From: a virus
Taxonomy: Duplodnaviria > Heunggongvirae > Uroviricota > Caudoviricetes
IMG/VR virus record: IMGVR_UViG_646311923_000012
Direction: 5' to 3' (one strand)
Length of the DNA: 64,000 nt
Positions 30,001 to 33,000 of this stretch are shown here, in pieces; within the stretch, counting starts at the first letter, position 1; each line of letters starts with the position of its first letter. A program made the position numbers.

Positions 30001-33000
30001 GCGAAAAATATTTTGTATGTTCAATCCAATACCCTCTGTCGTAGAGGTGTCATGCATTGGTGGATAAGTCATTTCAAGCTCAAAATATGCTGTCGCTATA
30101 TCATCAGCGATTTTTTTGCGCCCTACCCTCGGATAAAGCAGCCACGCATTCATCGCCATGCGGATGTGCTCATGCTTGATTTTCATGAATCAACTCCCGC
30201 CGCTGCTTGTGCGTTAGCCTGATACTCAACAGGTAAACCATCGGTTGGATTAGGGTATTTATCAGGGCGCAATTCATGCGGAGTTACTCCCCAGTCAAGC
30301 GCCTCACATGCTGGTATAACCTCCTCCGCTGGCACTCGTTTTTTAAACCACCCACTTATGGTTTGCGGTGTTTTACCAAGACGACGCCCTAATTCTGATT
30401 GGCTCATTATTGACAGGATTTTCACTTGAGTACTTTTTTGCATGTTTCCCTCCGAACTTTACGATGACACCGATAATTACAAATTTAAATTTAAATTTCA
30501 ACTTCTATTTGTAATGCCACTTATCAATTTTTTCTGTAGGATCGCGGAACTAGTTTACGAGGGGTGGTGATGATCTTTGTAAAACGCCTTCAGCAGGTGT
30601 TGCAGGAATTGAATATAAACCAGTCAGAGCTGGGAAGACGTCTTGGTGTAAAACCCCAATCCGTGCAAGGTTGGTTGAAAGGCGTGATGCCAAGAATGGA
30701 TAAACTGGAAAAATTAGCAGAGCTCTCACAACATCCCGTCCATTGGTTCTTTATGGAAGAAGAAACTCTCGGCGATAAAATGGCTGTATCCAGTAATGAC
30801 AACCAACCGCAACTTACAGAACAACAACGAAAAATCATATCGCTTTTAGATGAGTTACCTCAAAGCGACGCAGAGCAGATCATTCGTGATATGGAGCAAA
30901 AACGCGATTTCTATAAACGGAAACTTGAAGAGTTACTGCGGCAGAAAAACAAAACTGCCTGATGCATTCCTTTTCTGGAACGAGCATCAGGCAAATGACT
31001 AGCAGATTTTATAATCCAACCAGGCTTTCCAGGGGGATACCAAATTGATTATGAAGACGGCGAATCATTGGTAACGTAAGGCTTCTGGTACCATTCAACA
31101 CCTCATAAACCCGATTTTTTTTCCCAATTGCGGGTTCCAAATCTTTCACAGTCAGCCCCTGCTGTTCCATGCGAAATCTTATAGCTTCAATTGGGGATGG
31201 TGGCTCAATGGGATAATGTTTTTTTTCATATTCCTCTATTAGCAAACACATCACCTCAAAAAAATCCCCCTCAGGCGTGTCAATTTCGGGCTCATTGTCG
31301 AACATGGGTTCAACAGCACGCAACGCGGCTTCATAATCTTGCTCTGTACGAATAGGTTTGATGTTCATGCTTACTCCAGTTCGATGGTATCAGCATCAAT
31401 AGCATCGTATTCCTTGTGGTTTCCGATGAATTTAACAAATACCCATCCTCGCTGATACGCAATTGCAACAATTAAACGGTAATGATTACCTTTTATGTTG
31501 AATACCACGCGCCGGTTTTTCAATATACTGGCCGTTCGGTATTGTGCCTTAATGTCTGCTGGGCTTTTCCAGTCAGCTTTTGCCGCCTCATCCACCCATG
31601 CCCTTAGCGGTTGTTCTGCATCAGGATTCTCCGCCCAAAAATCCCTGAGTGTTTTAACTGAGATAATCTTCATAACTGTATAGTAGTCCCATTTTGGGAC
31701 TGATGCAACAGCCCGCAATTACAAATTTAATAATAAACATGTTGACCAGTTAAATTTTAATTTGTAAATTGTATCCATAAACCCACCCCGCCCCACAGAA
31801 CGCAGGGCAATACTTCGAGTTACCCGGCAGTGGTCAGGGGTTAAGTAGCCAGCCTGAGGCGTATGAACATGACGGCGGGGATTACGTTTAACTATGCAGC
31901 AGGTTTTTTGTTCCGCTACCCCGGCGTTAAGGGGAAACAGAGGATTTCTCAGTGGGCGAAGTCAAACATCAGAATGGAAGGCATCCAGGGATCAGCAAAG
32001 AAACAGCGATGGCGCTTTATATTGATATCAGCGCCATTGCCGGACAGGTAAGAATTATCAGAGCGGTAACTAAGCGGTATGCGCCTTTACTTCAGAAAGT
32101 CTCTGGTGAGTGCACCGAAGATATTGTCAACGATTTCGTCATCAAACTGCGAGGACTCATCTTCAGTTACAAGGTGACCACAATTTTTGCAGATGGCTCC
32201 CGCGAAACTGTCAGAGCCATGCGGTTTAAAGGATGTGTCAAAGACTTCGCCACCACATTCTGGGCAAGAAAACTTGATTGTATTCATAACCAATTTCCTC
32301 TCGAGTAACAGACCCCTCAGAGGATACCACCTCGCCTGACGTGGTTAAAAGCAGGCAGCGCTAACCACAAGGAGCCGACATGCAGAAACGAGAACCCGTC
32401 ATCATCGCGCCAGACTATACCGATGATGAACTTTATGAGTGGATGCACCAGAAAATTAAGGCAGCGCAGGACCTGAAATGGGCCAATGAAGCCAGGGCTA
32501 AGCAGGCTGAAAATCTGTCCGCTCTGGAGCAGGATATCACCAATCTGGAAAAAGCAGCGGCATTAAGCATTGCCAGAATGATTACATACCCGCGTTAATA
32601 GCTAACCAACGAAGCTAAGGTTGGTAATTAAGGAGTTCTCCACGGGTGAGGTGGAGTGCGTGCGCCGGACACGGGTGAGCATCCGGCACTGACAGTTTAC
32701 TGAAAGGATATTTCCCTGAAAAGTCAGACCATAACGCGAAAGCGCACGGCGAGGTAGCTGGTTCATAGATAGCCTGTCGTTAAATTTTCGTCGACCGTGC
32801 GCTTCCGGTTGTGGCAATCCGCGAAATGGCGCGGCGGTAAGTATGGCGGGGTTATTCCTTCCCCAGTTGAGGACACCGGGTTGTCAGGTTGACCATACGC
32901 TTAAGTGACAACCCCGCTGCAACGCCCTCTGTTATCAATTTTCTGGTGACGTTTGGCGGTATCAGTTTTACTCCGTGGCTGCTCTGCCGCCCTTTTTAAA

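What the first reader, a model, noticed from the sequence alone, without database searches (positions are those of the whole stretch)
31009..31770. HigB/HigA-like pair in the rexAB-equivalent slot next to cI, bracketed by operator palindromes
A toxin-first two-gene module (31371..31673 HigB-like, 31009..31368 HigA-like HTH) lies convergent to the cI-like gene, exactly where lambda carries rexAB. Its promoter region holds the same ATTACAAAT/ATTTGTAAT half-sites as the cI-cro operator, so it may be repressor-controlled in the lysogen. This is the classic position for lysogen-expressed exclusion or abortive-infection functions, and the module type here differs from rex.
Basis: partly seen in the sequence, partly recalled or inferred. 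Interest (0 to 1): 0.55.

Follow-up and report, generated by a model that had tools for sequence, protein, structure and literature searches.

The report
HigBA toxin-antitoxin pair inside prophage immunity region
A genuine, selection-maintained HigB/HigA toxin-antitoxin pair lies between the repressor gene and the left operator of an E. coli lambdoid prophage, a slot already known to hold such cargo, so it is a further example of a known arrangement and not a new kind of system.

Summary
ORFs 31371-31673(-) and 31009-31368(-) are a toxin-first HigB/HigA pair. HigB matches Pfam HigB_toxin at 4.8e-33. Both proteins match solved E. coli K-12 HigB and HigA, and RefSeq already names the toxin.

The pair lies between a DicA-like cI (30570-30962,+) and the early-left operon (ydfC, DicF, dicB, exonuclease), which is lambda's rexAB position. 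It is on the opposite strand to cI.

The ATTACAAAT motifs are real and conserved, but they are best read as the prophage's OL operators around a rightward PL promoter (TTGACC-17-TAAATT, 31742-31770). Two heteroimmune relatives carry their own OR-type repeats at the same place.

higBA has its own promoter. A GTCCC-N5-GGGAC palindrome (31686-31700) sits between -35 TTGCAT and -10 TACTAT and is conserved in homologous cassettes on plasmids and P1-like phage-plasmids. An intrinsic terminator (30956-30993) follows higA.

cI, higBA and OL always travel together: 147/147 E. coli genomes and 23/23 IMG/VR contigs. Both TA genes are under strong purifying selection (pN/pS up to 0.11).

The closest precedents are the HigBAC defence system of H-19B-type phages (same slot, 42-43% identity), PD-lambda-2, and paaA2-parE2 of CP-933P. 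This pair lacks their extra sensor parts. A defence or addiction role is plausible but untested.

The parts
31371..31673 (-). higB, 100 aa, RelE-fold mRNA-interferase toxin of the PF09907 family
   Evidence: Pfam HigB_toxin at 4.8e-33. PDB K-12 HigB at 3e-7. PADLOC PD-Lambda-2_A at 1.1e-40. Family-invariant V57 F58 N59 G62 N63 R66 H86 E88 Y89 D90 are retained. pN/pS is 0-0.11 in seven comparisons and 0.27 in an eighth that rests on 1 synonymous and 1 non-synonymous difference; one further allele (L021, n=3) has one non-synonymous and no synonymous difference, so no ratio is defined.
31009..31368 (-). higA, 119 aa, antitoxin with an N-terminal toxin-binding part and a C-terminal HTH
   Evidence: HTH_3. 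PDB K-12 HigA at 3e-9 over residues 6-112. PADLOC PD-Lambda-2_B at 1.7e-42, but only profile positions 1-119 of 402. 43% identity to the HigA of HigBAC over 112 aa. pN/pS is 0.02-0.06.
31680..31708 (-). Putative higBA promoter: -35 TTGCAT (31708-31703), 17-nt spacer, -10 TACTAT (31685-31680). Only 6 nt separate the -10 from the ATG, which suggests a leaderless mRNA.
   Evidence: Conserved in register in 4 homologous cassettes from unrelated contexts (alignment A1). In 11 allelic variants the TTG of the -35 and positions 1, 2, 5 and 6 of the -10 do not change. It scores below the threshold of the simple scanner (7 of 12).
31686..31700 (.). Putative HigA operator, palindrome GTCCCATTTTGGGAC (GTCCC-N5-GGGAC), lying in the promoter spacer
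   Evidence: Invariant arms in all 5 cassettes. Arms are conserved in 10 of the 11 variant alleles, with one outermost-base change in L014 (G to A at 31686), while the spacer varies. It is the only exact match in the 64 kb. The HigBAC promoter has the analogous TTCCC-N5-GGGAA twice.
31709..31716 (.). Junction between the higBA cassette and OL. It is the remnant (GCGGGC on the - strand) of the distal HigA palindrome that homologous cassettes have here.
   Evidence: In A1 the homologues align a second xTCCC-N5-GGGAy palindrome at this place, and the window aligns TTTGTAATTGCGGGC instead. These are the most variable columns among the variants.
30942..30993 (-). Intrinsic terminator of the higBA transcript: hairpin 30956-30993 followed by GUUUUGUUUUUCUG, overlapping the 3' end of cI
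   Evidence: Perfect 10-bp inverted repeat (I22). RNA fold -26.1 kcal/mol, z=-3.5, 0 of 200 shuffles as good.
31717..31737 (.). OL2: copy of the repressor operator unit AATTACAAATTTAATAATAAA, immediately upstream of the higBA -35
   Evidence: 21-nt direct repeat with 30475-30495, 86% identity (D1). Conserved in variants.
31742..31770 (+). PL: promoter of the early-left operon, TTGACC-17-TAAATT. OL1 (31750-31767) lies between the -35 and through the -10.
   Evidence: Promoter scan. The 18-nt operator unit is 94% complementary to 30477-30494, which occupies the same position in PR (I3). Homology to heteroimmune phages starts at 31780, just past the predicted start site. Evi and Tritos have their own OR-type repeats at the equivalent place.
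30570..30962 (+). cI-equivalent repressor, DicA-like, 130 aa, with no S24 peptidase domain
   Evidence: HTH_3, and NCBIfam DicA model at 2.3e-13 (below its cut-off). PGAP start. Divergent from the YdaS-like cro gene.
30475..30515 (.). OR: two abutting inverted operator units, ATTACAAAT...ATTTGTAAT, overlapping the divergent PR and PRM candidates
   Evidence: I4 and I8. Promoter candidates at 30501-30473(-) and 30464-30491(+). Motifs conserved in variants.
30183..30443 (-). cro-equivalent gene (YdaS family)
   Evidence: Pfam YdaS_toxin at 1.7e-8. phrog_35.
30198..31780 (.). The whole immunity module (cro, OR, cI, terminator, higA, higB, OL/PL), inherited as one mosaic block
   Evidence: Homology breakpoints against Evi and Tritos. 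The whole block is present in 147/147 E. coli genomes with any part of it and in 23/23 IMG/VR contigs, with differing flanks.

Best explanation
This is a functional type II HigBA toxin-antitoxin cassette carried as cargo inside the immunity module of a Qin/dicB-type lambdoid prophage of non-O157 STEC and other E. coli.

Shown by the sequence and searches:
- HigB belongs to PF09907, the family of K-12 HigB, a RelE-fold mRNA interferase.
- HigA has the K-12 HigA architecture.
- The genes are translationally coupled.
- Both genes are under strong purifying selection.
- The cassette lies between cI and OL/PL, on the strand opposite to cI.

Inferred from conservation:
- The pair is transcribed from its own weak sigma-70 promoter (TTGCAT-17-TACTAT).
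- A HigA dimer represses that promoter at the GTCCC-N5-GGGAC palindrome in the spacer.
- The mRNA starts at or next to the ATG.
- Transcription ends at the hairpin abutting the cI stop codon.
- The ATTACAAAT-containing 18-mers are the repressor's operators. OL1 overlaps PL, and OL2 lies upstream of the PL -35. They shut off the rightward early-left operon in the lysogen, as OR1 does for PR.
- Expression of higBA therefore does not require the phage repressor and should continue in the lysogen.

Inferred by analogy only: in the lysogen the stable HigB is held in check by labile HigA. When an infecting phage, or loss or replacement of the module, stops resupply of HigA, HigB cleaves translating mRNAs and arrests the cell. 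That would give abortive-infection defence, addiction to the immunity module, or both.

My estimates: identity and architecture above 0.9; OL assignment about 0.85; HigA autoregulation about 0.8; expression in the lysogen about 0.7; a defence role about 0.45. The overall confidence of 0.6 reflects the whole chain, including the untested biological role.
For: - Family membership.
- RefSeq annotation agrees.
- Slot and mosaic boundaries.
- OL/PL assignment: the promoter scan, the OR1/OL1 repeat in the equivalent promoter position, and the same layout in the heteroimmune phages Evi and Tritos. It also matches the experimentally mapped OL/PL lying beyond the TA genes in CP-933P (PMC8630535).
- Own promoter and operator: conserved in cassettes from a P1-like phage-plasmid, K. 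aerogenes, Plesiomonas and Pantoea and across 11 alleles. The HigBAC promoter has the analogous palindromes.
- Terminator.
- Selection: pN/pS for higA is 0.02-0.06. For higB it is 0-0.11 in seven comparisons and 0.27 in an eighth resting on one synonymous and one non-synonymous difference. For cI it is 0.00-0.17. higA is intact in 22 of 23 contigs and higB in 23 of 23.
- Precedent for defence from this slot: HigBAC of E. coli NT1F31 protects against lambda-vir and Bas25 (bioRxiv 10.1101/2024.02.24.581848). The same gene set lies between cI and N in H-19B-type Stx phages, with 42% (HigB) and 43% (HigA) identity to this pair.
- PD-lambda-2 uses a HigB-like component (PMC9519451).
Against: - There is no expression, toxicity or phage-challenge data for this pair.
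- The promoter matches consensus in only 7 of 12 positions and was not called by the scanner.
- The parts that sense phage in the validated relatives are absent: the ChAD tail plus SecB-like HigC in HigBAC, and the ImmA/IrrE peptidase plus the PF14350 protein in PD-lambda-2. Defence cannot be carried over by homology.
- The strict linkage of higBA with cI is expected for anything lying between cI and OL, so it is not evidence of function.
- Homologues on plasmids and P1-like phage-plasmids fit a plain maintenance role equally well.
- OL2 lies only 10 bp from the higBA -35, so an effect of the repressor on higBA cannot be excluded.
Confidence: 0.6

Rival explanations
1. Addiction or stabilisation module. 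HigBA kills or arrests cells that lose the prophage, or that swap the immunity module by recombination with a heteroimmune phage. Its selected effect would be persistence of this immunity type, not protection from other phages.
For: This role was proposed, with plasmid-stabilisation data, for paaA2-parE2, which sits in the same slot of the related prophage CP-933P (PMC8630535). Close homologues (81% nt identity) sit on roughly 90-kb P1-like phage-plasmids and other plasmids, where TA pairs classically act in maintenance. cI and higBA are never found apart.
Against: The linkage is explained by position alone. Chromosomal prophages are lost rarely, so post-segregational killing has little to act on. 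The slot is a documented defence locus. The two roles are not mutually exclusive.
Confidence: 0.3
2. Repressor-coupled TA. The phage repressor bound at OL2 (31717-31737) replaces the lost distal HigA operator and modulates the higBA promoter. The level of TA would then track the lysogenic state.
For: In homologous cassettes a second HigA palindrome lies just upstream of the -35. In this prophage that position is taken by the ATTACAAAT operator half-site, and only half of the old palindrome remains. The spacing between OL2 and the -35 is kept to within 1 nt in 11 alleles although the intervening bases vary.
Against: OL2 does not overlap the -35 or -10 of the higBA promoter. The juxtaposition is what a simple insertion or recombination junction next to OL would give. 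The junction bases are hypervariable, which argues against a composite regulatory site. OL2 has an obvious job with OL1 at PL, mirroring the paired units at OR.
Confidence: 0.15
3. A selfish hitch-hiker with no benefit to phage or host. The TA cassette landed in a permissive gap and persists through its own addictive property and its linkage to cI.
For: The family is promiscuous. It is found among tail genes in P1-like plasmids and Bacteroidota-type phage contigs, and in plasmids and chromosomes.
Against: Purifying selection on both genes is at least as strong as on cI. Nearly all copies are intact. The promoter, operator and terminator are conserved.
Confidence: 0.1

Closest known systems
HigBAC toxin-antitoxin-chaperone defence system of E. 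coli NT1F31; the same gene set lies between cI and N in phage H-19B and many Stx1a/Stx2a phages (bioRxiv 10.1101/2024.02.24.581848)
   Same: A PF09907 HigB toxin followed by a HigA antitoxin with the same N-terminal and HTH architecture: 42% (HigB) and 43% (HigA) identity. It sits in the variable locus downstream of cI where lambda has rexAB. Its own promoter carries xTCCC-N5-GGGAx palindromes.
   Different: The HigA of HigBAC is 218 aa, with a 96-residue chaperone-addiction tail, and is followed by a SecB-like chaperone (HigC) that senses the lambda tail protein gpV. Here HigA ends at residue 119 and there is no third gene. HigBAC is co-directional with cI, whereas this pair is convergent with it. 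The repressor types also differ (S24-peptidase CI against a short DicA-like protein).
PD-lambda-2 (Vassallo et al. 2022, PMC9519451)
   Same: Component A is a PF09907 HigB, and the N-terminal 119 residues of component B are HigA-like. The PADLOC models match at 1.1e-40 and 1.7e-42.
   Different: PD-lambda-2B carries a C-terminal ImmA/IrrE peptidase domain (PF06114). A third protein (PF14350) is required for defence, and B rather than A was the toxic part. Neither the peptidase domain nor the third gene is present here.
paaR2-paaA2-parE2 in the immunity region of cryptic prophage CP-933P (Jurenas et al. 2021, PMC8630535)
   Same: A type II TA lies between the cI-equivalent gene and OL/PL in a lambdoid prophage that has YdaS (Cro-like) and YdaT (CII-like) regulators. 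OL/PL operators resembling OR lie beyond the TA genes.
   Different: The toxin family differs (ParE against HigB). paaA2-parE2 is co-transcribed with the repressor from PRM, and its antitoxin has no DNA-binding domain. Here the TA is on the opposite strand, with its own promoter and a DNA-binding antitoxin.
E. coli K-12 chromosomal HigBA (YgjN/YgjM; PDB 5ifg, 5ycl, 6kml)
   Same: Same two protein families, toxin-first order and similar sizes. The conserved motifs VFN..GN..R and HxEYD are retained.
   Different: Only about 28% identity for HigB. The K-12 pair is chromosomal and not in a prophage.
Lambda rexAB
   Same: Position between cI and OL/PL, inside the immunity region.
   Different: No sequence relationship. 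rexAB is co-transcribed with cI, and its mechanism (membrane depolarisation) is different.

Membership tests
HigB toxin, Pfam PF09907 (E. coli K-12 YgjN type) | Profile match above the curated threshold over the whole domain | tested here: met
   113.7 bits against a cut-off of 27, E=4.8e-33, profile positions 1-74 of 74.
HigB toxin, Pfam PF09907 (E. coli K-12 YgjN type) | Family-invariant residues shared with the structurally solved K-12 HigB | tested here: met
   V57 F58 N59 G62 N63 R66 H86 E88 Y89 D90 are invariant across 7 sequences, including K-12 HigB. I did not check which of these are catalytic.
HigB toxin, Pfam PF09907 (E. coli K-12 YgjN type) | Toxin gene upstream of, and coupled to, an HTH antitoxin gene | tested here: met
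   higB stop codon TAA, then 2 nt, then the higA ATG, with GGAG inside the higB 3' end.
HigB toxin, Pfam PF09907 (E. coli K-12 YgjN type) | Growth inhibition through ribosome-dependent mRNA cleavage | not testable with these tools
   Needs expression and cleavage assays.
HigA antitoxin (K-12 YgjM type, COG5499-like) | Similarity to solved HigA across both the N-terminal part and the C-terminal HTH | tested here: met
   E=3e-9 with query residues 6-112 against 5ifg_B residues 24-132. HTH_3 at residues 63-115. No NCBIfam model hit.
HigA antitoxin (K-12 YgjM type, COG5499-like) | Palindromic operator in its own promoter (autoregulation) | tested here: inconclusive
   GTCCC-N5-GGGAC in the promoter spacer is conserved across cassettes and alleles. 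Binding was not tested.
HigBAC toxin-antitoxin-chaperone system | C-terminal chaperone-addiction (ChAD) extension on HigA | tested here: not met
   HigA is 119 aa and ends with the HTH. The HigA of HigBAC is 218 aa, with its ChAD at residues 122-218.
HigBAC toxin-antitoxin-chaperone system | SecB-like chaperone gene downstream of higA | tested here: not met
   Only 46 bp separate the higA stop from the cI stop. In H-19B-type phages the third ORF matches PD-T4-9_C (the SecB-like CmdC) at 3.2e-11. Nothing equivalent is present here.
HigBAC toxin-antitoxin-chaperone system | Location in the variable locus downstream of cI (the rex slot) | tested here: met
   The orientation is opposite.
PD-lambda-2 | HigB-like component A | tested here: met
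   PDLC03979 at 1.1e-40.
PD-lambda-2 | Component B with a C-terminal ImmA/IrrE (PF06114) peptidase domain | tested here: not met
   The match covers only profile positions 1-119 of 402. Pfam finds only HTH_3.
PD-lambda-2 | Third component C (PF14350), required for defence | tested here: not met
   There is no third ORF in the module.
Lambda RexAB-type exclusion | Homology to RexA/RexB and co-transcription with cI | tested here: not met
   The proteins are HigB and HigA and lie on the strand opposite to cI. Only the position is shared.
Prophage OL/PL operator-promoter | OR-type operator copies overlapping an outward promoter at the far end of the immunity module | tested here: met
   The same layout is seen in Evi and Tritos with their own motifs. 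Repressor binding was not tested.

The most novel reading that the evidence does not exclude
The phage repressor bound at OL2 has taken over the place of the distal HigA operator. Transcription of higBA would then be tuned by the lysogenic state, making the pair a toxin-antitoxin wired into a prophage's immunity switch. For example, it could be released or boosted when the repressor is lost at induction, or when the immunity module is replaced. In addition, higB would be translated from a leaderless mRNA.
Probability: 0.15. Interest if true: 0.55.

Novelty: new member of a known kind. Interest (0 to 1): 0.3.

Why it matters
The slot downstream of cI in lambdoid prophages has now been filled by at least three TA-type modules:
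- HigBAC
- PaaA2-ParE2
- this minimal HigBA

This pair is a two-gene relative of a validated tail-protein-sensing defence system, without the sensor. It could be used to ask whether a bare HigBA defends at all, and if so what triggers it.

It is common in clinically relevant STEC of serogroups O26, O103, O45 and O121. In practical terms the result corrects an annotation-level reading: the palindromes are the prophage's OL, not a TA operator.

Tried and rejected
- NCBIfam gave no model hit for either protein, so family assignment rests on Pfam, PDB and PADLOC.
- A scan of one genome per species for the cI protein found no relative. cI without higBA could therefore not be looked for outside E. 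coli. Within E. coli genomes and IMG/VR no such case exists.
- I looked for covariation between operator half-sites and repressor alleles. The half-sites are almost invariant, so there is nothing to covary.
- The Rfam e-value scan of 29500-34000 found only DicF and a sub-threshold STnc100 match, and nothing in the TA module.
- I folded the conserved 160-nt PL leader (31778-31940) to look for a put/nut-like structure. It is no better than shuffles (z=+1.1).
- A MAFFT alignment of the PR and PL sides put the two promoters out of register. I rely on the repeat finder and the promoter scan instead.
- The longer higB ORF from TTG at 31718 (115 aa) is rejected. Homologues and PGAP start at MKIIS, and the upstream stretch carries a 1-nt indel in one allele and holds the promoter.
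- One tblastn call failed because I gave a non-coding frame.
- Structure prediction was not run, because sequence matches to solved HigB and HigA were already significant.
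Full report
**What is there**

The window around the finding is the regulatory region of a lambdoid prophage. It is 100% identical over 2.6 kb to prophages of E. coli O26:H11 str. 11368 and to strains labelled O103 and O45 among the listed hits. An O121 strain carries the 30444-31800 module at 96.1% identity. 132 of 5,426 complete E. coli genomes hold at least 80% of 30100-32700.

The gene order, from my ORF list and the RefSeq annotation, is:
- replication genes
- a YdaT/CII-like gene, 29749-30186(-)
- a YdaS/Cro-like gene, 30183-30443(-)
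- a 120-bp intergenic region
- a DicA-like repressor, 30570-30962(+)
- higA, 31009-31368(-)
- higB, 31371-31673(-)
- about 100 bp of AT-rich DNA
- the early-left operon on the + strand, with a small antisense Zn-ribbon ORF, ydfC (32380-32598), DicF RNA (32941-32992, 75 bits), dicB and a 816-aa exonuclease

**Checking the two proteins**

- The 100-aa protein matches Pfam HigB_toxin (PF09907) end to end at E=4.8e-33. It matches the solved E. coli K-12 HigB at 3e-7.
- It keeps the residues that are invariant from K-12 HigB to phage-borne homologues, in the motifs VFN..GN..R and HxEYD.
- The 119-aa protein has an HTH_3 domain. It aligns with solved K-12 HigA over residues 6-112 at 3e-9.
- The stop codon of higB and the start codon of higA are 2 nt apart, with a GGAG inside the end of higB.

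PGAP already names the toxin.

**The slot**

Local BLAST against two sequenced heteroimmune relatives, phages Evi and Tritos, shows that homology ends at 30197, at the cII-like/cro boundary. It resumes at 31780. The block 30198-31780 is therefore an exchangeable immunity module, and higBA lies inside it between cI and the far end.

This is the place occupied by rexAB in lambda. In Tritos nothing lies there. In Evi there is a 63-aa ORF.

**What the ATTACAAAT motifs are**

- The motif is enriched, with 4 copies against 0.5 expected, and three of the four lie in this module.
- It is part of an 18-21-nt unit. Positions 30475-30495 and 31717-31737 are 86% identical. Positions 30477-30494 and 31750-31767 are 94% complementary.
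- At OR, two such units abut head to head.
- The unit at 30477-30494 fills the space between the -35 and the -10 of the leftward cro promoter candidate (TTGAAA-17-AATTAT).
- Upstream of higB, the unit at 31750-31767 fills the same space in a rightward promoter (TTGACC-17-TAAATT, 31742-31770).
- The predicted start of that rightward promoter is 2-3 nt before the point where homology to other phages resumes.
- Evi and Tritos have different operator motifs, but each repeats its own OR motif in the 60 bp just upstream of that same junction.
- In the related prophage CP-933P, OL and PL were mapped experimentally at the equivalent position, beyond a TA pair (PMC8630535).

The palindromes are therefore best explained as OL1 and OL2 controlling PL, not as the operator of higBA. 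Any gene in the rex slot is necessarily 'bracketed' by OR and OL.

**How higBA is expressed**

I aligned the 140 nt upstream of higB with four homologous cassettes (74-81% nt identity). They come from a P1-like phage-plasmid, K. aerogenes, a Plesiomonas plasmid and a Pantoea plasmid.

All share, in register:
- a -35 of TTGCAT or TTTACA
- a 17-nt spacer made of a GTCCC-N5-GGGAC palindrome
- a -10 of TACTAT, TAATAT or TATTAT

In four of the five, exactly 6 nt lie between the -10 and the ATG, so the mRNA is probably leaderless.

Among 11 alleles of the module from IMG/VR, the palindrome arms, the TTG of the -35, and positions 1, 2, 5 and 6 of the -10 are conserved (one arm base changes in L014). 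The palindrome spacer and -10 positions 3-4 vary. That is the pattern expected of a working promoter and operator.

The HigBAC promoter of H-19B-type phages has the analogous TTCCC-N5-GGGAA twice.

Downstream of higA, a 10-bp perfect hairpin with an inner stem is followed on the - strand by GUUUUGUUUUUCUG (-26 kcal/mol, z=-3.5). This is a terminator that abuts the cI stop codon.

**The junction with OL**

The homologous cassettes have a second, distal palindrome just upstream of the -35. In this prophage that place aligns with TTTGTAATTGCGGGC. The left half has become the OL2 half-site, and only GCGGGC remains of the palindrome.

The 8 bases between are the most variable in the module. I read this as the recombination junction of the cassette with OL.

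It leaves the repressor site 10 bp from the higBA -35. An influence of the repressor on higBA is therefore possible but not indicated.

**Linkage and selection**

- Every one of the 147 complete E. coli genomes with any part of 30444-31800 has at least 80% of it.
- The 23 IMG/VR contigs with this cI are the same 23 that have this HigB.
- The flanks differ. The ydaT segment is 98-100% identical over its full length in 11 contigs, 69% in 8, absent in 3, and cut to 45 nt in L014. The PL leader is full-length or only 157 nt.
- This linkage is expected from position, and I do not count it as evidence of function.
- Selection is informative. Against alleles with pS of 0.08-0.27, pN/pS is 0.02-0.06 for higA.
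- For higB, pN/pS is 0-0.11 in seven comparisons and 0.27 in an eighth resting on one synonymous and one non-synonymous difference. One further allele (L021, n=3) has one non-synonymous and no synonymous difference, so no ratio is defined.
- For cI, pN/pS is 0.00-0.17.
- One contig of 23 has a 1-nt gap in higA.

**Comparison with known systems**

- PADLOC models of PD-lambda-2 match strongly (A at 1e-40, B at 2e-42). The B match stops at position 119 of 402.
- PD-lambda-2B has a C-terminal ImmA/IrrE peptidase and needs a third protein (PMC9519451). Neither is present here.
- tblastn of HigB against phage records found a 42%-identical HigB in the immunity region of H-19B and many Stx phages.
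- In those phages, between cI and N and co-directional with cI, lie HigB, a 218-aa HigA, and a protein matching the SecB-like chaperone CmdC.
- This is the HigBAC system. It was shown to defend against lambda-vir and Bas25 by sensing the tail protein gpV through the chaperone. [quoted passage not shown]
- The present HigA is 43% identical to the HigA of HigBAC over 112 residues, but it ends where the chaperone-addiction tail begins.
- paaA2-parE2 of CP-933P is a third TA in this slot, proposed to stabilise the immunity region.

**Function**

Defence is plausible for three reasons: the precedent in the same slot, the HigB-based defence systems already known, and a Plesiomonas homologue next to TIR and caspase genes. 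However, the sensing parts of both validated relatives are missing.

Addiction is plausible because of the CP-933P precedent and the homologues on plasmids and P1-like phage-plasmids.

I rank defence by antitoxin depletion first (about 0.45), addiction second (about 0.3), repressor coupling third (about 0.15) and pure hitch-hiking last (about 0.1). The first two are not exclusive.

**Verdict**

The family and slot are right, the operator assignment is wrong, and the role is untested.
- This is a new member of a known kind: TA or defence cargo in the rex slot of lambdoid prophages.
- It differs from its relatives in being a bare two-gene HigBA, inverted relative to cI and fused to OL.
- Interest is modest.

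Noticed in passing
window 31673-31685, and L005, L006, L007 upstream of higB: The conserved -10 ends exactly 6 nt before the higB ATG in the window and in 3 of 4 distant homologous cassettes, and no Shine-Dalgarno sequence is present. This suggests a leaderless higB mRNA. The P1-like copy has an 18-nt insert carrying an SD instead.
   Followed up: partly
window 31781-31937: About 157 nt immediately downstream of the predicted PL start is 90-100% conserved across prophages with different immunity modules, while what follows varies. No N-like ORF is visible. It has no Rfam match and no unusual fold. Its role as a leader or antitermination site is unknown.
   Followed up: partly
L004 (plasmid pE16EC0256-4, CP088573.1) 2994-3659: A higBA cassette with 91% (HigB) and 94% (HigA) protein identity lies on the opposite strand between tail and baseplate genes of a roughly 93-kb P1-like phage-plasmid. 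Many similar plasmids of about 90 kb from E. coli, Salmonella and Shigella carry it.
   Followed up: partly
L006 (Plesiomonas plasmid NZ_CP027854.1) 2988-5512: The homologous higBA is divergent from adjacent TIR-domain and caspase-family genes, which is a defence-island-like neighbourhood.
   Followed up: no
L060/L061 (Stx2a_WGPS9 and H-19B) 3001-4342: The classic phage H-19B carries an unannotated HigB-HigA(ChAD)-SecB-like chaperone (HigBAC-type) operon between cI and N. In the 1998 GenBank record no features are annotated there.
   Followed up: yes
window 32941-32992 and 32990-33199: A DicF sRNA (75 bits) is followed by a sub-threshold STnc100-like match (37.7 bits against a gathering score of 47), upstream of dicB. 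This marks the prophage as Qin/dicB-type.
   Followed up: no
window 32087-32293 (-): An ECs_2282-family CxxC zinc-ribbon ORF (NCBIfam 1.1e-15) lies antisense within the PL operon leader region. Its function is unknown.
   Followed up: no
window 36373-37392: The integrase ORF is intact here (339 aa). The corresponding gene is annotated as frameshifted in E. coli O26:H11 11368. The window therefore comes from a different, possibly inducible, copy of this prophage.
   Followed up: no
L018 (IMGVR_UViG_2526164630_000030): One of the 23 viral contigs has a 1-nt gap in higA relative to the window. This is a possible frameshift or a sequencing error.
   Followed up: no
window 30475-30515 versus 31717-31767: The two inverted operator units abut at OR (0 nt between the arms) but are 12 nt apart at OL (31738-31749). 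The outer TTACAAAT half-sites are therefore about one helical turn further apart at OL. The binding mode of this short DicA-like repressor is unknown.
   Followed up: no
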